From positions 224 to 64,223 of the forward strand of contig JANRLG010000160.1 in assembly GCA_033762835.1 (NCBI GenBank): 64,000 nucleotides of DNA. Reading direction: 5' to 3'. The notes below the pieces were generated by a model. That model did no database searches. It was given only the letters and a program-made list of their open reading frames with translations, and was not told the origin of the DNA. Source of the DNA: Thermoanaerobaculia bacterium. GTDB lineage: Bacteria > Acidobacteriota > Thermoanaerobaculia > Multivoradales > DATKCC01. The translations under genes and the position numbers were made by a program. Of the stretch, positions 29,394 to 50,493 are shown in pieces. Every line of letters begins with the position of its first letter. Positions within the stretch are counted from its first letter, which is position 1.

Positions 29394-30848
29394 TCAGAGT
29401 CCGGGAGACAACCGCGAATAAAACAGCGTCGCGGCCGAGCCCATGACCGAATTGATGCCGGATTGCACCGTCCAGTGGCCGATGTGATGGAGGCCGCGGA
29501 CGGGCGTCGCGGAATCGGCCGGTTTCAGATAGTGGAGGCTCGTGAGACTGCTGCCGGAGACCGAACCGGCCCGGTTCCGGGTGTAGTGCTGGAAGGTGAA
29601 GGGGGTCGCCGCGGTGGTCGACTCGACGTGTTGGGTCATGCCGGGGAAGGCCTGTTCGAGGCGCGCGAGCACCACCGAGGTTGCCGCCGCCTTGGCTTCG
29701 TCGTAGCGCCGCGCGTCGAGCTCCGCGGGGGCGCAGTCCCGGCCTTGGCCCCAGAAGTTGAAAGCCGAAACCGGCGTCGCGGCCCAGGCGCAGAGGGTGC
29801 GTTTGCCGGGCGCGAGGGCGGGATGGAGAGCGCTTTGAAACTCGACCCGCAGCGGCGCCGTGGCGAGGCCGCCCGGGTCCCGGTGCCAATCGGGGGTTGC
29901 GGCCAGTACCGTCCAGCCGTAGTCCTCGCGGGGGACCGCCGGAGCGTCACCGGACAGGCCCAGGAACAACCCGAAGGTCGACAGGCCGGCCTCCCGGTCG
30001 AGCAGCGAGCGCGCCCGGGGTGCGCTCGAAAACTCATCCGCGAGGAGTCGGCGGTAGAGCTCCGCGACGTCGACTCCGGCGACCACGATCGGAGCGGCGA
30101 TTTCTTCTCCCGACTCGAGGGCGACGCCCCGCACCTCGTCGCCCGCGACCCGGATGCGCGCTACCGGCGTGCGGTAGCGGATTTCACCGCCCCAGGCGAC
30201 GACTTTGCGGTGGAGCAAGACCGCCAAGCGCCGGTGGTCGTGGTGCACGGGCACGTAGACCTGCCCCAGGCACACCGCCGAGAGCAGGTACATCAGCAGC
30301 ACGCCGCGCGCCCCGGGATAGCCGAGGATGCTGTAGAGCAGATGGCGCAGCAACGGATCCCCGAAGTAGCCGGCGAGCAGGTCTTCGACCGGTTTGATGC
30401 CGCGGCCGAGGAGGATCTCCCGCGCCCGTCGGGAATCCCCTTGCACGGCCTGACAATCGTCGAGGAAGCGGGCGATCGCCGCCGCTTCATGGGGAAAGGC
30501 GGCCGACAAACTGGCCGTCAGCGCGGCGCCATCGCAGGGCAAACGCACGGGCGCCGGCAGCTCCGGGGAGACCACCGATTTGAACCGCGACAAGCGCTCG
30601 AAGGGGTACTCCCGGTCCACTTCGAGCAGATTCAGCAGCTCGTGGAAGGACTGCCCGGGTAGGACGTCCGTGGTCCACTCGAGGGCGACGTTGAACAGGA
30701 ACGGCCCCCGTTTGAAGGACGTGAAGAGGCCACCGGGCAGGTAGTGCTGCTCGAGCACCAGGACCCGTCGCCCTGCCTTCGCCAGCAGCGCGGCACAGGT
30801 CAAGCCGGACATCCCGGCGCCGATGACGATGACGTCGTAGGACTTCAT
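29394..30848 (-). CDS. FAD-dependent oxidoreductase, phytoene-desaturase (CrtI)-like
   Basis: The start is MKSYDVIVIGAGMSGLTCAALLAKAGRRVLVLE, a GxGxxG FAD motif. ATGA overlaps the upstream gene's stop. ~484 aa. Confidence 0.8.
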   Translation of the reverse strand: MKSYDVIVIGAGMSGLTCAALLAKAGRRVLVLEQHYLPGGLFTSFKRGPFLFNVALEWTTDVLPGQSFHELLNLLEVDREYPFERLSRFKSVVSPELPAPVRLPCDGAALTASLSAAFPHEAAAIARFLDDCQAVQGDSRRAREILLGRGIKPVEDLLAGYFGDPLLRHLLYSILGYPGARGVLLMYLLSAVCLGQVYVPVHHDHRRLAVLLHRKVVAWGGEIRYRTPVARIRVAGDEVRGVALESGEEIAAPIVVAGVDVAELYRRLLADEFSSAPRARSLLDREAGLSTFGLFLGLSGDAPAVPREDYGWTVLAATPDWHRDPGGLATAPLRVEFQSALHPALAPGKRTLCAWAATPVSAFNFWGQGRDCAPAELDARRYDEAKAAATSVVLARLEQAFPGMTQHVESTTAATPFTFQHYTRNRAGSVSGSSLTSLHYLKPADSATPVRGLHHIGHWTVQSGINSVMGSAATLFYSRLSPGL

Positions 30849-31573
30849 GCCGCGGCCGGCCGAGGGCGTAGTTTGCGCAGCTTGGCGTGGATCATGACGC
30901 GCTCGGCGAAGAAGTTCTGGTGTGAGCTCCAGGTCGCGATCCCCTCGGCCCAGGCGCTGTTGCAACGCAGCCGGCGACCATAGCGGTGAATTCGCGGTCG
31001 GCCCGGACCGGAGAAGGACAGCGCGATGTCCTCGCCATTGCCGACCCGACTGGCCTCGTGCCACCCCAGTTGCCGGTAGATCTCGAGGGTGGTTAGGACA
31101 TGCTCGCGGCTGAACAGATACAGCTCGGTCAAGTGGTCGACCTCACGCTCCCCTCGGACGCCGATGGCGAAGGGATAGTGGGTCATATCCTTGACCGGCT
31201 GGCGCACCTCGCCGCTGATGCCGTGCGGGACCTCGGGAGCCGCCAGCAGGTGCCGGTAGAGCCTCTCGATCTGGTGCGGGTAGAGAAAGCAGTCGTCGTC
31301 CGGCGAAAGGAAGTAGCCGAGGTCGCCCGCGCGTTCGAGGGCGAGGGGAAACCGCACGCCTTGCTTGGTCGGCTCGGGTTGCCGGATCAGCTCCACTCGG
31401 GGGTCGGCAAGGCTGGGAGCCAGGCGTTCGAGATCGATCTCGGGGTGGTTGTTGCTCACGATGACCTTGCCCACGAACGAACAACGCAGATAGCTGCGCA
31501 CCAGCCATTCGACATTCGCCGGTCGCTTGTAGGAGAGCAGAACGACTCCGAGGGGCGGGGTGTCGGGCGGCAT
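30845..31573 (-). CDS. small GT-A-like glycosyltransferase-family protein
   Basis: A 242-aa protein, LGVVLLSYKRPANVEWLV, with a DDD motif in SPDDDCFLY. The start ATG 31573 was verified in the DNA. Confidence 0.5.
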   Translation of the reverse strand: MPPDTPPLGVVLLSYKRPANVEWLVRSYLRCSFVGKVIVSNNHPEIDLERLAPSLADPRVELIRQPEPTKQGVRFPLALERAGDLGYFLSPDDDCFLYPHQIERLYRHLLAAPEVPHGISGEVRQPVKDMTHYPFAIGVRGEREVDHLTELYLFSREHVLTTLEIYRQLGWHEASRVGNGEDIALSFSGPGRPRIHRYGRRLRCNSAWAEGIATWSSHQNFFAERVMIHAKLRKLRPRPAAA

Positions 31574-49246: not shown

Positions 49247-50493
49247 GGACTTTGCCTCCCGAGCACTTCCGGGGCGTCCAGATGGGCCGCGCGCCACGCC
49301 GGACCGGCGGCCGCGAGCACCCCGAGAACGACGGAGGCGGCGAGCAGCAGGCCGACGGTTTGCAGCTCGAGCCGCGGGTAGAGCCGCGGACCGGCGAAGA
49401 CGTACAGCAGCGCCTCGGTGAAGGCGGGAATGCCGACTTTGCCGAGCCACAGGGACACGCCGCCGCCGACCAGAAGACCGGCGAGGCTCGACAGTCCGGC
49501 GAGCAGGACTCCCTCGCCCACGATCGTGCCGAGCACGTCCCGGGTGCCGAAACCCAGGGCGCGCATGACCGCGATCTCGCCCTCGCGCTCGAGCACGTAG
49601 AGGCCGAGGGTGCTCGCCACGAGTACCACGGCGAGCAGCGCCAGGATCAAGCCCATGACCAGGCGGAACAGATCGCCGATGCGCAGGATGTTCTGGAACA
49701 GCCGGCCGCTGTCGCGCCAGGTGGTCAGGCGCATTCCGGTGCCGAGCTGCGGCCCGAGGGCGGCGGTGACGGTGTCGAGCTGGTCTGGTGTCTCGAGGGT
49801 GGCGACGATCTCGTGGACGGCGTCAGGCTCGAGGCCGAGCAGGTGCCGGACCTTCTCGATCGGCACGTAGGCCAGCGAGGAGTAGAAGCGGCCGATGCCG
49901 CGGTCGTCCGTGAGGCCGACGATCTCGAGCTCCACGGCGCCGAAGGAGCCGTCCACGGTCGAGGCCAAAAAGGCGATGTCGTCGCCGAGAGCGAGCTTCT
50001 TGTCGCGCGCCAGGCTCTCGCCGATCACCACCTCGGCGGCGCCGGGAGCGACGAACCGGCCACTGGCCAGGTGCAGCCCGGTGGCCACGGTGAGCTCGCG
50101 CTCGGCCGCGACGCCGAGCAGGAAGGCGCCCCAGGTTTCGTCGCGAACCGAGCCCAGGGCTCCGGCGCGGACCCGCGGGGTCACGGCGGCGATCCCGGGT
50201 TGGGCGGCCAGCAACTCGAGGAGCCGTGCGGGCTCGGGCAGGGGCGCGAAGCCGTCGGCATCGGCCGCGGCGACGTCGCGCCCGGCGTCGCTGGCGGTGA
50301 GCTGGACGTGACCGGTGACCGTCCGGACCATAGCGTCTTCGAACGCCCGGCGTTGCCCGGCCCCTTGGGCCAGCTGAAACACCAGCGCGGCGTTGGCGAG
50401 CGCTACGATGCTCCCGACGAGCAAGGTCCGCGACCGGAACCGCCAGGCATTACGCAGGGCCAGCACGCCCAGGCGGGCCACGGTCAGAGCCAC
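49243..50493 (-). CDS. FtsX-family ABC permease (second copy)
   Basis: A GTG start, MALTVARLGVLALRNAWRFRSRTLL. It has the same topology as the downstream paralog. It is the first gene of the operon. Confidence 0.8.
   Translation of the reverse strand: MALTVARLGVLALRNAWRFRSRTLLVGSIVALANAALVFQLAQGAGQRRAFEDAMVRTVTGHVQLTASDAGRDVAAADADGFAPLPEPARLLELLAAQPGIAAVTPRVRAGALGSVRDETWGAFLLGVAAERELTVATGLHLASGRFVAPGAAEVVIGESLARDKKLALGDDIAFLASTVDGSFGAVELEIVGLTDDRGIGRFYSSLAYVPIEKVRHLLGLEPDAVHEIVATLETPDQLDTVTAALGPQLGTGMRLTTWRDSGRLFQNILRIGDLFRLVMGLILALLAVVLVASTLGLYVLEREGEIAVMRALGFGTRDVLGTIVGEGVLLAGLSSLAGLLVGGGVSLWLGKVGIPAFTEALLYVFAGPRLYPRLELQTVGLLLAASVVLGVLAAAGPAWRAAHLDAPEVLGRQSP

What the first reader, a model, noticed from the sequence alone, without database searches (positions are those of the whole stretch)
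29394..50493. 21-kb translationally coupled cluster: specialised acyl-ACP synthesis plus GT2/PIG-L deacetylase plus BtrH-like acyltransferases plus Lol-like export. Candidate novel N-acyl aminosugar glycolipid or outer-membrane lipid pathway
Twenty co-directional genes run with ATGA/GTGA start-stop overlaps at most junctions.
- Export: two FtsX permeases, a LolA-like carrier, an outer-membrane-barrel-like protein, and a LolD-like ATPase. This is the machinery of a LolCDE-type export route to the outer membrane. There is also an ABC-2 exporter pair.
- Acyl-chain synthesis: ACP, a canonical KAS, a second KS-like protein lacking the second His, FabZ, FabG, and two CrtI-like FAD desaturase/oxidoreductases.
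- Headgroup assembly: a fused GT2-PIG-L enzyme that would glycosylate and then N-deacetylate (GlcNAc to GlcN); two BtrH_N/DUF4872 proteins, whose homolog BtrH transfers an ACP-bound acyl group to an aminosugar amine; a hotdog thioesterase; and a small GT-A protein.

The combination resembles aryl-polyene/xanthomonadin-type lipid clusters in its export and FAS-like parts. It replaces their lyase/ligase/acyltransferase logic with an LpxC/LpxD-like 'deacetylate then N-acylate from ACP' logic using non-homologous enzymes. That suggests an undescribed, specialised, possibly unsaturated N-acylated aminosugar lipid delivered to the outer membrane.
Basis: inference. Interest (0 to 1): 0.8.

Follow-up and report, generated by a model that had tools for sequence, protein, structure and literature searches.

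The report
Orphan acyl-aminosugar lipid gene cluster
This is a real, conserved but rare 20-gene operon in an uncultured acidobacterium that most likely builds a specialised fatty or polyene chain, joins it to a glucosamine-type sugar and exports it to the cell surface; the product is unknown, but each step resembles known pathways.

Summary
Twenty co-directional minus-strand genes fill 29394-50493; 12 of 19 junctions overlap and the other gaps are 16 nt or less. Profile searches confirm nearly every domain call.

- The second ketosynthase lacks the catalytic Cys and both His, so it is a chain-length-factor-like partner.
- The 690-aa BtrH-like protein is a degenerate BtrH-like domain fused to an active one.
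- One gene (g16) is unassigned, and the "small GT-A" call is below threshold.

The window comes from a Thermoanaerobaculia MAG. The core (ACP, KS, GT2-PIG-L, BtrH-like, thioesterase, ABC-2 pair, dehydratase, CLF, ketoreductase) is syntenic in at least seven other distinct loci (38-75% identity). The fusion enzyme has only about 19 orthologue clusters among 5.8 billion proteins. The Lol-like module and FAD enzymes are present in only some of these loci.

Best reading: a type II PKS/FAS-like chain on ACP is transferred by a BtrH/CcbD-type Cys-His transacylase to a GlcN amine made by GT2 plus PIG-L. The product is then exported by an ABC-2 pump and a Lol-like route.

No published description of this cluster was found. 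However, the logic has closer precedents than LpxC/LpxD: butirosin, lincosamides, HpnI/HpnK and Nod factors. I rate it a new variant of a known kind, of moderate interest.

The parts
50494..50886 (-). Untranslated leader / probable promoter region upstream of the first gene
   Evidence: 390-nt lower-GC gap between the upstream gene's stop (50887) and the g1 start. No Rfam family matches it. No promoter scan was run on this stretch (one search covered 28900-29500 only), and promoter activity was not shown.
49243..50493 (-). g1: FtsX/MacB-type permease (LolC/E-like), 416 aa
   Evidence: PF12704 MacB_PCD 8e-15 and PF02687 FtsX 3.5e-14. TIGR02212 lolCE scores 112.6 bits, below its cutoff of 362. 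Four TM segments.
48029..49246 (-). g2: second FtsX/MacB-type permease, 405 aa
   Evidence: FtsX 3e-12 and MacB_PCD 3e-7. ATGA overlap with g1.
47226..48035 (-). g3: periplasmic LolA-like carrier, 269 aa
   Evidence: PF17131 LolA_like 1.4e-37. N-terminal hydrophobic signal-like segment with no lipobox Cys.
46087..47229 (-). g4: outer-membrane beta-barrel of an undescribed family, 380 aa
   Evidence: No Pfam, NCBIfam or PDB sequence hit. AF2 model pLDDT 72, pTM 0.69, about 20 strands. Foldseek matches AlgE, OmpM1, MOMP and porins at E ~1e-9, TM 0.5-0.58. C-terminal ...RLRWSF. Only 7 relatives at E<1e-30 in 1.84e9 representatives.
45350..46078 (-). g5: ABC ATPase of the MacB/LolD type, 242 aa
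   Evidence: PF00005 3e-34. Best NCBIfam hits are the MacB N-terminal region and LolD (194.9 bits, below the 307.75 cutoff).
45091..45357 (-). g6: dedicated acyl carrier protein, 88 aa
   Evidence: PF00550 3.5e-6. LDS43ID phosphopantetheine motif. Below all housekeeping AcpP cutoffs.
43841..45088 (-). g7: active FabF-like ketosynthase, 415 aa
   Evidence: PF00109/PF02801. Cys166, His299 and His336 are conserved in all orthologues. TIGR03150 fabF scores 375 bits, below its 493.75 cutoff. Best PDB hits are FabF; the HR type II PKS KS 6kxd also hits.
42085..43824 (-). g8: fused GT2 glycosyltransferase + PIG-L/LmbE N-deacetylase, 579 aa, no TM segment
   Evidence: PF00535 5.8e-21 (residues 4-107) and PF02585 8.4e-27 (residues 371-493). 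DDD 89-91, AP-H376-M-D-D379-E and H480-P-D-H483 are invariant in 19 orthologues. PDB relatives are TT1542, diacetylchitobiose deacetylase, BshB and MshB. No TM segment.
40943..42088 (-). g9: short BtrH-like transacylase, 381 aa
   Evidence: PF16169 2.8e-11 and PF14399 2.1e-8, both above gathering. Cys18 and His149 are conserved in 7 orthologues, with Asp155/157 nearby. Missing in L085/L086.
40434..40946 (-). g10: hotdog (4HBT/YbgC-type) thioesterase, 170 aa
   Evidence: PF13279 1.5e-14 and PF03061 1.9e-8. Conserved next to the BtrH-like genes in all orthologous loci.
38365..40437 (-). g11: degenerate BtrH-like domain (residues 1-~335) fused to an active BtrH-like transacylase (residues ~340-690)
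   Evidence: PF14399 8.9e-29 and PF16169 5.4e-36 in residues 350-644. The N-terminal half gives only a weak DUF4872 hit (0.009) and lacks Cys/His in all orthologues. The C-terminal half keeps Cys351 and His466, with Asp474 nearby. The two halves are separate genes in L004, L006, L085 and L088. A low-confidence AF2 model (pLDDT 58) matches AziU2/U3, CtaG and CcbD.
37385..38368 (-). g12: ABC ATPase of the DrrA/NodI type, 327 aa
   Evidence: PF00005 1.7e-29. TIGR01188 drrA scores 238 bits and NodI models 174-202 bits, all below cutoff.
36303..37388 (-). g13: ABC-2 permease, 361 aa
   Evidence: PF12698 8e-29 and PF01061 1.8e-28. About 6 TM segments.
35859..36287 (-). g14: FabZ-type 3-hydroxyacyl-ACP dehydratase, 142 aa
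   Evidence: PF07977 4e-21. NF000582 FabZ scores 137.8 bits, above its cutoff of 113. Weak ApeI-like/ApeP-like hits in orthologues.
34789..35844 (-). g15: catalytically dead KS paralogue (chain-length-factor-like), 351 aa
   Evidence: PF00109 and PF02801. The active-site Cys is deleted, His1 is replaced by A/G/S and His2 by E in all orthologues of the core family; the distant L007 has N at His2.
33927..34775 (-). g16: unassigned 282-aa protein (accessory)
   Evidence: No Pfam, NCBIfam or PDB hit. An orthologue was found only in L002/L003.
33184..33930 (-). g17: FabG-type 3-oxoacyl-ACP reductase, 248 aa
   Evidence: PF13561 1e-62. TIGR01830 scores 266.9 bits, just below its 297.75 cutoff.
31741..33180 (-). 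g18: FAD oxidoreductase, distant CrtI/amine-oxidase superfamily, 479 aa
   Evidence: NAD_binding_8 5.5e-8. crtI_fam scores 65.9 bits, below its 238 cutoff. Orthologues follow FabG in L001, L002 and L088.
30845..31744 (-). g19: membrane-anchored protein with weak GT-A similarity, 299 aa (accessory)
   Evidence: PF00535 7.8e-4, 19.8 bits, below its 23.3 cutoff. One N-terminal TM segment. Orthologue in L001.
29394..30848 (-). g20: CrtI-superfamily FAD oxidoreductase, 484 aa (accessory)
   Evidence: PF01593 8.6e-13 over residues 13-472 and DAO 1.4e-15. TIGR02734 scores 96.8 bits over its full length, below its 238 cutoff.

Best explanation
This is a single biosynthetic operon for an acylated aminosugar lipid.

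**Step 1, inferred from domain content.** A dedicated ACP (g6), an active FabF-like KS (g7) paired with a dead CLF-like KS (g15), a ketoreductase (g17) and a FabZ-type dehydratase (g14) build a chain of defined length. No enoyl reductase is present, so the chain is probably unsaturated, polyene-like or hydroxylated. Malonyl loading, and any enoyl reduction, would be borrowed from primary metabolism.

**Step 2, inferred.** The soluble fusion enzyme g8 transfers GlcNAc, or a related N-acetylhexosamine, to an unidentified acceptor with its GT2 half. Its PIG-L half then removes the N-acetyl group and exposes a free amine.

**Step 3, inferred from family precedent.** The Cys-His transacylase in the C-terminal half of g11, helped by its degenerate N-terminal twin, takes the acyl chain from the ACP onto its Cys. 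It passes the chain to the sugar amine to form an amide, as BtrH and CcbD/LmbD do. The second active BtrH-like enzyme g9 and the hotdog thioesterase g10 add a second acyl group or edit and release the product.

**Step 4, inferred.** The ABC-2 pair g12/g13 moves the product across the inner membrane. In this genome a LolCDE-like extractor (g1, g2, g5), a LolA-like periplasmic carrier (g3) and a porin/AlgE-like barrel (g4) carry it to or through the outer membrane.

**Tailoring.** The FAD enzymes g18 and g20, g19 and g16 are lineage-specific tailoring steps of unknown chemistry.
For: **Operon structure.** 20 co-directional genes, 12 of 19 junctions overlapping.

**Families.** All family assignments are above Pfam gathering, except g4, g16 and g19.

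**Catalytic residues.**
- Kept in the KS g7 and lost in g15 across orthologues.
- The DXD and PIG-L metal motifs are invariant in 19 orthologues.
- Cys and His (with a nearby Asp) are kept in g9 and the C-terminal half of g11 but absent in the N-terminal half of g11.

**Conserved synteny.** ACP-KS-GT2/PIG-L-(BtrH)-4HBT-pseudoBtrH-BtrH-ABC-ABC2-DH-CLF-KR recurs in L001/L005, L002/L003, L004, L006, L085/L086, L087 (truncated after the CLF gene, no FabG) and L088. Fusion-enzyme identity is 38-75% and locus GC is 56-71%.

**An independent distant variant.** L007 (GC 32%) again combines GT2, PIG-L, KS, CLF, KR, ACP and a BtrH-like protein.

**Precedent for the fold.** The BtrH fold is an established carrier-protein-dependent amide-forming transacylase. 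CcbD acylates an aminosugar amine and also accepts fatty acyl donors. The g11 model matches CtaG, CcbD and AziU2/U3.

**PIG-L relatives.** The PDB relatives are GlcNAc-glycoside deacetylases. HpnI/HpnK show GT + PIG-L acting on a lipid.

**Export.** g4 is predicted to be an OM barrel. The FtsX module recurs at different positions in the orthologous clusters: upstream in the window, L002 and L088, downstream in L085, and as a fused double permease in L001 and L085.
Against: - No product or enzyme activity is known for any member.
- The GT2 donor and acceptor are unknown, and nothing in the cluster makes an obvious aglycone.
- BtrH-related enzymes also sit in dialkylresorcinol/flexirubin-type clusters (NCBIfam DarH). 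There the acceptor could be a hydroxyl (my inference), so O-acylation is not excluded.
- g14 passes the housekeeping FabZ model and g7 is closer to FabF than to known polyene KSs, so a saturated chain made with a borrowed FabI is possible.
- The g11 structure model has low confidence (pLDDT 58).
- The Lol-like module is missing within 10 kb in L004, L006 and L087, so outer-membrane targeting is not a universal property of the family.
- The roles proposed for g9, g10, g16 and g18-g20 are guesses.
Confidence: 0.5

Rival explanations
1. An aryl-polyene/flexirubin-type pigment cluster variant. The KS/CLF system makes a polyene, and the BtrH-like enzyme esterifies it to a hydroxyl of the sugar or another alcohol. 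The GlcN amine stays free, giving a cationic headgroup as in BHT-glucosamine. LolA-like export proceeds as in APE clusters.
For: - KS/CLF + KR + DH + ACP + thioesterase + GT2 + LolA-like is the APE parts list, and no enoyl reductase is present.
- A BtrH-like gene sits in the Azoarcus dialkylresorcinol cluster.
- The best NCBIfam hit of g11 is the 'BtrH-related acyltransferase DarH' model (1e-33).
- Orthologous dehydratases give weak ApeI/ApeP-like hits.
- HpnI/HpnK produce a lipid with a free GlcN amine.
Against: - No aryl-starter genes (ammonia-lyase, chorismatase, AMP-ligase), no LPLAT-type acyltransferase, no RND/MMPL exporter and no methyltransferase in any of the 20 genes.
- DarH scores 116.9 bits, below its cutoff of 300; FlxB scores 207, below 340.
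- g7 scores higher against FabF (296 bits) than against the other KS entries in the PDB list.
- Every biochemically characterised member of the BtrH/CcbD/CtaG fold cited here forms amides.
Confidence: 0.2
2. A saturated or 3-hydroxy fatty-acyl glucosamine lipid, made with the housekeeping enoyl reductase. This would be a Nod-factor/lipid-A-like surface lipid or biosurfactant rather than a polyene. The FAD enzymes would introduce late desaturation.
For: - g14 passes the FabZ equivalog model (137.8 bits, above 113).
- g17 is just below the FabG cutoff.
- g7 is most similar to FabF.
- The ABC-2 pair resembles NodI/NodJ and DrrAB.
- CrtI-superfamily enzymes are plausible desaturases.
Against: - To my knowledge, a dead CLF-like KS partner is a hallmark of type II PKS-like systems, not of FAS.
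- No ER, FabD or acyl-ACP-specific LpxA/LpxD/NodA-type transferase is present.
- The FAD genes are absent from several orthologous clusters.
Confidence: 0.2
3. Not one pathway. A Lol/MacB-type transporter operon, a fatty-acid operon and cell-envelope glycosylation genes merely lie next to each other.
For: The Lol-like module and g16 and g18-g20 are variable between loci. Translational coupling is common in high-GC genomes in general.
Against: - The core order g6-g17 is conserved in at least 7 other distinct loci from genomes of 56-71% GC; L087 is truncated after the CLF gene.
- The FtsX module re-associates with the core at different positions.
- The Lol proteins score far below the housekeeping LolCDE cutoffs.
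- The g4 family has only 7 relatives at E<1e-30 in the library, and the two orthologues whose context I checked (L002, L088) sit in the same module.
- No intergenic gap inside the cluster exceeds 16 nt.
Confidence: 0.05
4. A soluble low-molecular-weight aminosugar metabolite: a bacillithiol/mycothiol-like thiol or an aminoglycoside-like compound carrying a short ACP-derived side chain as in butirosin. On this reading it is not a lipid.
For: - The PIG-L half is most similar to BshB1 (2.5e-22) and TT1542.
- Butirosin combines a PIG-L-type deacetylase, an ACP and BtrH (own knowledge).
- L004 carries ATP-grasp genes inside the cluster.
Against: - BshB1, MshB and Mca all score far below their cutoffs.
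- No inositol, 2-deoxystreptamine, cysteine-ligase or aminotransferase genes are present.
- An iterative KS/CLF/KR/DH set implies a long chain.
- LolA-like carriers and ABC-2/Lol-type exporters suit hydrophobic cargo.
Confidence: 0.05

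Closest known systems
Butirosin side-chain pathway (BtrM glycosyltransferase, BtrD PIG-L-type deacetylase, BtrI ACP, BtrH transacylase)
   Same: It uses the same four functions. GlcNAc is added and then N-deacetylated by a PIG-L-family enzyme, an acyl group is assembled on a dedicated ACP, and a BtrH-family Cys-His-Asp enzyme transfers it to an amine of the aminosugar scaffold (for BtrH; the rest is own knowledge). g9 and g11 carry the BtrH_N + DUF4872 architecture.
   Different: - In butirosin the acyl group is a short gamma-Glu-AHBA unit made by ATP-grasp/PLP enzymes, not by a KS/CLF/KR/DH set.
- The acceptor amine in butirosin is on 2-deoxystreptamine.
- Butirosin has no fused GT2-PIG-L (BtrM is, to my knowledge, not GT2), no ABC-2 or Lol-like export and no pseudo-BtrH partner.
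Lincosamide condensation enzyme CcbD/LmbD
   Same: It is a carrier-protein-dependent, cysteine-protease-like ping-pong amide synthase that acylates an aminosugar amine, and it accepts fatty acyl donors in vitro. It is a structural match of the g11 model.
   Different: - Sequence identity is only ~11-13%, and Foldseek E is 1.5e-3 on a low-confidence model.
- The CcbD triad is Cys-His-Glu.
- Its donor is an NRPS-type PCP-bound amino acid.
- The product is an actinobacterial antibiotic, not a lipid.
Aryl-polyene / xanthomonadin / flexirubin clusters
   Same: They share a KS + CLF-like KS, KR, DH, dedicated ACP, hotdog thioesterase, GT2 and a LolA-like protein, with no enoyl reductase. A BtrH-like gene occurs in the linked dialkylresorcinol cluster.
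   Different: - This cluster has no aryl starter machinery, no LPLAT acyltransferase and no RND/MMPL exporter.
- It adds a PIG-L deacetylase, ABC-2 and FtsX-type transporters and a beta-barrel.
- Its KS is closer to FabF.
Hopanoid headgroup enzymes HpnI (GT2) / HpnK (PIG-L) / HpnJ (radical SAM)
   Same: A glycosyltransferase adds GlcNAc to a lipid alcohol and a PIG-L-type deacetylase frees the amine. The distant variant L007 even has a GT2 - radical SAM/SPASM - PIG-L trio.
   Different: - No squalene/hopene genes are present.
- No Hpn model appears among the NCBIfam hits listed for g8.
- The hopanoid product is not N-acylated.
- The two enzymes are fused here.
Nod factor pathway (NodC, NodB, NodA, NodF/NodE, NodI/NodJ)
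   Same: The overall logic is the same: a GT2 sugar step, N-deacetylation, N-acylation with a specialised (often polyunsaturated) chain made on a dedicated ACP by a dedicated KS, and export by an ABC-2 pair (own knowledge). g12 hits NodI models at 1e-51 to 1e-59.
   Different: - The deacetylase (PIG-L versus the NodB polysaccharide-deacetylase fold) and the acyltransferase (BtrH-like versus NodA) are non-homologous.
- g8 has no TM segments and no NodC hit.
- All NodI/NodJ scores are below cutoff.
LolCDE-LolA-LolB lipoprotein sorting and MacAB-type extractors
   Same: It has two different FtsX/MacB_PCD permeases plus one ATPase, as in LolC/LolE/LolD, and a LolA-fold periplasmic carrier.
   Different: - Scores are far below the LolC/E/D equivalog cutoffs.
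- The carrier belongs to PF17131, not LolA proper.
- The outer-membrane partner is a beta-barrel, not a LolB lipoprotein.
- The inferred cargo is a glycolipid, not a lipoprotein.

Membership tests
BtrH family transacylases (PF14399 BtrH_N + PF16169 DUF4872) | Both Pfam domains above gathering threshold, in the N-terminal papain-like + C-terminal helical arrangement | tested here: met
   g11 residues 350-644 score 100.8 and 124.4 bits; g9 scores 34.9 and 43.9 bits; cutoffs are 29.7 and 28. The secondary structure of the model is alpha/beta followed by helical, repeated twice.
BtrH family transacylases (PF14399 BtrH_N + PF16169 DUF4872) | [quoted passage not shown] | tested here: met
   g9 Cys18/His149 and the g11 C-terminal half Cys351/His466 are conserved in all orthologues aligned, each with a nearby Asp (g9 155/157, g11 474). 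The g11 N-terminal domain lacks Cys and His, so it is a pseudo-enzyme.
BtrH family transacylases (PF14399 BtrH_N + PF16169 DUF4872) | Transfer of a carrier-protein-bound acyl group to a free amine | not testable with these tools
   An ACP gene (g6) lies in the same operon. Activity needs in vitro assay.
NCBIfam DarH (BtrH-related acyltransferase) equivalog | Score at or above the curated cutoff of 300 bits | tested here: not met
   g11 scores 116.9 bits and g9 26 bits.
PIG-L / LmbE N-deacetylases (PF02585) | Domain above gathering, and the conserved metal-binding/catalytic motifs (AHPDDE-like and HxxH) | tested here: met
   94.6 bits against a cutoff of 28.2. H376, D378, D379, E380 and H480-P-D-H483 are invariant in 19 orthologues.
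PIG-L / LmbE N-deacetylases (PF02585) | Orthology to a characterised member (BshB1/2, MshB, Mca, HpnK) | tested here: not met
   BshB1 79.7 bits against 182.5; Mca 39.2 against 277; MshB 34.2 against 224. No HpnK model appears among the listed hits.
GT2 glycosyltransferases (PF00535) | GT-A domain above gathering with a DXD motif | tested here: met
   g8 scores 75.6 bits against a cutoff of 23.3. D89 and D91 are invariant. For g19 the feature is not met: 19.8 bits against 23.3.
Aryl-polyene (APE) biosynthetic gene clusters | KS plus a catalytically inactive CLF-like KS, KR, DH and dedicated ACP, with no ER | tested here: met
Aryl-polyene (APE) biosynthetic gene clusters | Aryl starter supply and activation (ammonia-lyase or chorismatase plus AMP-ligase), LPLAT-type acyltransferase and RND/MMPL-type exporter | tested here: not met
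   None of the 20 proteins hits such families in Pfam or NCBIfam.
Aryl-polyene (APE) biosynthetic gene clusters | ApeI/ApeP-type dehydratases | tested here: inconclusive
   g14 scores 18.9 bits against ApeI-like (cutoff 28.5) but passes FabZ NF000582 at 137.8 bits against 113. Orthologues show unmarked or weak ApeI/ApeP hits.
LolCDE-LolA-LolB lipoprotein export | Equivalog-level LolC/LolE and LolD | tested here: not met
   TIGR02212 scores 112.6 bits (g1) and 41.8 bits (g2) against 362. TIGR02211 scores 194.9 bits against 307.75.
LolCDE-LolA-LolB lipoprotein export | LolA-fold periplasmic carrier and LolB-type outer-membrane lipoprotein receptor | tested here: inconclusive
   The carrier is PF17131 LolA_like at 129.6 bits. 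No LolB is present; a predicted beta-barrel takes its place.
Housekeeping type II fatty acid synthase | Equivalog-level FabF, FabG, FabZ and AcpP, plus an enoyl reductase | tested here: not met
   FabF 375 bits against 493.75; FabG 266.9 against 297.75; ACP models 34-37 against 70-92. Only FabZ passes. No ER gene is present.
Nod factor (lipochitooligosaccharide) pathway | NodC, NodB, NodA and NodI/J orthologues | tested here: not met
   No NodA, NodB or NodC model appears among the listed hits. NodI scores 174-202 bits against 424-549; NodJ scores 30 bits against 207. The relationship is an analogy of logic only.
CrtI phytoene-desaturase family (TIGR02734) | Score at or above 238 bits | tested here: not met
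   g20 scores 96.8 bits over its full length and g18 scores 65.9 bits. The relationship holds at superfamily level only.

The most novel reading that the evidence does not exclude
The cluster makes a previously unknown class of outer-membrane or surface glycolipid: a polyenoyl or otherwise specialised N-acyl-glucosaminide. A BtrH-type transacylase working as a catalytic/pseudo-catalytic pair installs the lipid tail. A dedicated LolCDE-like extractor, a LolA-like chaperone and a new beta-barrel family carry this non-protein lipid across the periplasm. That would be a Lol-style trafficking route for a small glycolipid rather than for lipoproteins.
Probability: 0.25. Interest if true: 0.75.

Novelty: new variant of a known kind. 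Interest (0 to 1): 0.5.

Why it matters
If the model is right, three things follow.
- BtrH/CcbD-type papain-like transacylases, known so far from antibiotic pathways, would also build membrane or surface lipids.
- A fused GT2-PIG-L enzyme would stand as a compact 'make a free sugar amine' module.
- Acidobacteria would gain a new lipid class, with possible use as a biomarker or bioactive compound.

The associated LolCDE-like, LolA-like and barrel module would be a tractable example of how diderm bacteria move hydrophobic small molecules to the outer membrane. That question is still poorly resolved for aryl polyenes and hopanoids.

The family is rare. The fusion enzyme has about 19 orthologue clusters among 5.8 billion proteins, and the barrel has 7 close representatives among 1.84 billion. 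It is therefore a specialised trait, not a core function.

Tried and rejected
1. Exact-sequence look-up of the window's g8 found no contig. The homology search then identified the source MAG.
2. The homology search with g11 returned only 4 proteins and the one with g4 only 3, because of word-index limits on Ala/Leu-rich sequence. The resulting shallow alignments gave a poor g11 model (pLDDT 58). Its Foldseek matches are treated as supportive only.
3. PDB sequence searches for g4, g11 and g16 found nothing. The one for g19 found only a chance hit to RNA polymerase omega (E 0.13).
4. Pfam at E<=5 gave nothing for g4 or g16. Remote g4 relatives gave only sub-threshold Porin_O_P and DUF1302 hints.
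5. Ten literature searches found no paper on this cluster: BtrH, DUF4872, DarH, LmbE + aryl polyene, highly reducing type II + glucosamine, and PF14399. The remaining three searches covered HpnI/HpnK, CcbD/LmbD and DUF1302/DUF1329 comparators.
6. I rejected reading g1, g2 and g5 as the housekeeping LolCDE, because scores are far below cutoff.
7. I rejected an aryl-polyene cluster proper, because the starter, LPLAT and RND genes are absent.
8. I rejected treating the apparent ABC-2 + FabZ fusion in L001 as real. The g13 match changes reading frame inside that gene and FabG is split in the same long-read assembly, which points to indel errors. The g9 + thioesterase fusion there is in frame but unconfirmed.
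9. The Rfam scan found no RNA element in the cluster or its leader.
10. The promoter/terminator scan of the 3' end gave one terminator-like hit, which is no better than shuffled sequence.

Full report
**1. Observation**

The window is 65-73% GC, so raw ORF lists are crowded with spurious frames.
- Ten junctions are 4-nt ATGA/GTGA overlaps, two overlap by 7-8 nt, and the other seven gaps are 2-16 nt.
- Upstream of the first gene lies a 390-nt lower-GC gap (50494-50886). Downstream of the last gene is a 115-nt gap before an unrelated 836-aa ORF with no Pfam hit.
- Rfam finds nothing in the cluster.

The block therefore looks like one operon.

**2. Gene content**

In order of transcription:

| Gene | Assignment |
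|---|---|
| g1, g2 | FtsX/MacB_PCD permeases |
| g3 | LolA_like (PF17131, 1.4e-37) |
| g4 | no family |
| g5 | MacB/LolD-type ATPase |
| g6 | ACP |
| g7 | FabF-like KS |
| g8 | GT2 + PIG-L fusion |
| g9 | BtrH_N + DUF4872 |
| g10 | 4HBT thioesterase |
| g11 | BtrH_N + DUF4872 in the C-terminal half of a 690-aa protein |
| g12, g13 | DrrA/NodI-like ATPase and ABC-2 permease |
| g14 | FabZ |
| g15 | KS-like |
| g16 | no family |
| g17 | FabG |
| g18 | distant FAD/CrtI-superfamily |
| g19 | sub-threshold GT2 |
| g20 | CrtI-superfamily |

Corrections and additions:
- **g15.** Its 5-residue deletion removes the catalytic Cys. The first His is replaced by Ala/Gly/Ser and the second by Glu in every orthologue of the core family (Asn in the distant L007). 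g7 keeps Cys166, His299 and His336. g15 is a chain-length-factor-like partner, not a KS missing one His.
- **g11.** Its N-terminal ~335 residues form a degenerate BtrH-like domain (weak DUF4872 hit) without Cys or His. This domain is a separate gene in L004, L006, L085 and L088. The cluster therefore holds two catalytically competent BtrH-like units (g9: Cys18, His149; g11 C-terminal half: Cys351, His466; each with a nearby Asp) and one pseudo-enzyme.
- **g4.** It has a signal-like N-terminus and ends in ...RLRWSF. AlphaFold predicts an all-beta barrel (pLDDT 72, pTM 0.69). Foldseek matches AlgE, OmpM1, MOMP and general porins (E ~1e-9, TM 0.5-0.58).
- **g8.** It has no TM segment. The DXD motif and the PIG-L motifs (H376, D378, D379; H480-P-D-H483) are invariant in 19 orthologues.

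**3. Origin and conservation**

g8 is 100% identical to a protein of a 'MAG: Thermoanaerobaculia bacterium' (Acidobacteriota) on a 64,293-nt contig. Only about 19 full-length orthologue clusters (38-75% identity) exist among 5.8 billion proteins. Among 185,579 species genomes, only two carry a full orthologue: L005 (Thermoanaerobaculaceae) and L006 (Acidobacteriota). There is also one distant variant with GT2 and PIG-L as separate genes (L007) and two weak, segmented matches in Methylomirabilota (L043, L062), whose context shows none of the other cluster genes.

The gene order ACP-KS-GT2/PIG-L-(BtrH short)-4HBT-pseudoBtrH-BtrH-ABC-ABC2-DH-CLF-KR is kept in L001/L005, L002/L003, L004, L006, L085/L086, L087 and L088, with locus GC from 56 to 71%. 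L087 is truncated after the CLF gene and shows no FabG. This argues strongly that the core is one functional unit.

Variable parts:
- **FtsX module.** It has the same five-gene form in the window, L002 and L088. It is a fused double permease upstream in L001 and downstream in L085. It is not seen within 10 kb in L004, L006 or L087.
- **g9.** Absent in L085/L086.
- **g18-type FAD enzyme.** Present in the window, L001, L002 and L088.
- **g16.** Found only in the window and L002.
- **g19.** Found only in the window and L001.
- **Extra genes.** L002 has an additional PTA_PTB gene and L004 has ATP-grasp genes.

The distant L007 (32% GC) again unites GT2, PIG-L, KS, CLF-like KS, two KRs, ACP, FAD enzymes and a BtrH-like protein. 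A radical SAM/SPASM gene sits between its GT2 and PIG-L genes.

**4. Mechanism**

Nothing here is shown biochemically. The following is inference from families.

*Chain synthesis.* KS/CLF + KR + DH + ACP without an enoyl reductase is the parts list of type II PKS-like ('highly reducing') systems such as the aryl polyenes. I therefore expect a defined-length unsaturated or hydroxylated chain on g6. However, g14 passes the housekeeping FabZ model and g7 resembles FabF most closely. A saturated chain made with a borrowed FabI cannot be excluded.

*Headgroup.* By homology to GlcNAc-glycoside deacetylases (TT1542, diacetylchitobiose deacetylase, BshB, MshB) and by analogy to HpnI/HpnK, g8 should add an N-acetylhexosamine to an acceptor and free its amine. 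The acceptor is unknown.

*Coupling.* The BtrH fold is an established carrier-protein-dependent transacylase with a Cys-His-Asp triad (BtrH and CtaG). CcbD/LmbD use the same chemistry to acylate an aminosugar amine and accept fatty acyl donors. The g11 model, although low in confidence (pLDDT 58), finds AziU2/U3, CtaG and CcbD as its best PDB matches. I therefore favour ACP-to-Cys351-to-sugar-amine transfer. The pseudo-domain may serve as a structural or ACP-docking partner. AziU2/U3 is a two-protein complex that matches the same fold, so a paired arrangement has a precedent. g9 and g10 may add a second acyl group, or edit or release the product.

*Export.* An ABC-2 pair (NodI/J- and DrrAB-like, below cutoff) would cross the inner membrane. 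In this genome a LolC/E/D-like extractor, a LolA-like carrier and a barrel would cross the periplasm and outer membrane.

**5. Comparison with known systems**

The cluster is not an APE cluster: it has no aryl starter genes, no LPLAT and no RND exporter. It is not the housekeeping Lol system or FAS, because scores fall below the equivalog cutoffs. It is not a Nod, Hpn, Bsh or Msh orthologue set either.

Its logic is not unprecedented. 'GT, then PIG-L-type deacetylase, then carrier-protein-dependent N-acylation by a BtrH-fold enzyme' is essentially the butirosin recipe (own knowledge). Lincosamide CcbD acylates an aminosugar amine from a carrier protein. 'GT2 + PIG-L on a lipid' is HpnI/HpnK. 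'Dedicated ACP/KS + deacetylation + N-acylation + ABC-2 export' is the Nod-factor logic with non-homologous enzymes (own knowledge). A BtrH-like gene is also known in a dialkylresorcinol cluster linked to aryl-polyene pigments.

What is new is the combination:
- a fused GT2-PIG-L enzyme;
- a catalytic/pseudo-catalytic BtrH pair;
- a KS/CLF lipid module;
- in part of the family, a Lol-like route with a barrel family that has no Pfam, NCBIfam or PDB sequence match.

**6. Verdict**

Novelty is a new variant of a known kind, namely an orphan, rare, conserved BGC family. Interest is moderate (0.5). It is a good target for heterologous expression, but nothing in the sequence forces a new principle.

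The most novel reading not excluded is a Lol-style trafficking route for a new N-acyl-glucosaminide outer-membrane lipid. I give it about 0.25 probability.

Noticed in passing
L007:9573-20826: A distant variant cluster in a 32% GC uncultured bacterium. It has GT2, then a radical SAM/SPASM enzyme, then PIG-L as separate genes (the same trio as hopanoid HpnI/HpnJ/HpnK). These are followed by a CLF-like KS, FabG, KS, two FAD enzymes, a second FabG, ACP and a BtrH-like protein. This suggests an aminocyclitol-like headgroup that is then acylated.
   Followed up: partly
window 26768-29278 (-), 51858-54905 (-), 55016-59035 (-), 58584-62120 (+), 5635-7641 (+), 8567-11185 (-): Six large ORFs (668-1339 aa) with coding-type GC3 have no significant Pfam match. 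Two of them directly flank the cluster. The 55016-59035 (-) and 58584-62120 (+) calls overlap by about 450 nt on opposite strands, so one boundary is probably wrong.
   Followed up: no
L085:7736-8119 and L086:7580-8119: A NusG-family paralogue is encoded divergently, immediately upstream of the ACP gene of the orthologous cluster. To my knowledge, specialised NusG paralogues (LoaP/RfaH type) often control long biosynthetic operons. No such gene is seen next to the window's cluster.
   Followed up: no
L010 and L035 (Clostridia / Faecousia MAGs): In these Gram-positive loci a stand-alone PIG-L deacetylase sits near ACP, FabZ-like, KS, CLF-like KS and a DrrA-type ABC ATPase. This may be a monoderm analogue of the same logic. 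The presence of a BtrH-like gene was not checked.
   Followed up: partly
L004:17371-18594 and 21088-21713; L002:19170-20183: Orthologous clusters carry lineage-specific inserts: two ATP-grasp genes in L004 and a PTA_PTB phosphotransacylase in L002. This hints at additional amino-acid or acyl-phosphate chemistry in some family members.
   Followed up: no
L001:16353-17918 and 19069-19814: The long-read Thermoanaerobaculaceae assembly shows an apparent ABC-2 + FabZ fusion and a split FabG. The tblastn matches change reading frame inside them, so these are probably indel errors rather than real architectures.
   Followed up: partly
window 1272-1345 (+): A tRNA gene (Rfam 66.7 bits) overlaps the end of a long minus-strand stop-to-stop frame (1-1326) that passed my GC3 filter. 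That ORF call is therefore too long at its 5' end.
   Followed up: no
window 46087-47229 (g4) and relatives P0058-P0065: The barrel protein belongs to a family with only 7 representatives at E<1e-30 among 1.84 billion cluster representatives, plus about 150 remote relatives of ~400 aa without Pfam annotation. This is a small undescribed OMP family. The two orthologues whose context I checked (L002, L088) sit in the same FtsX/LolA-like module.
   Followed up: partly
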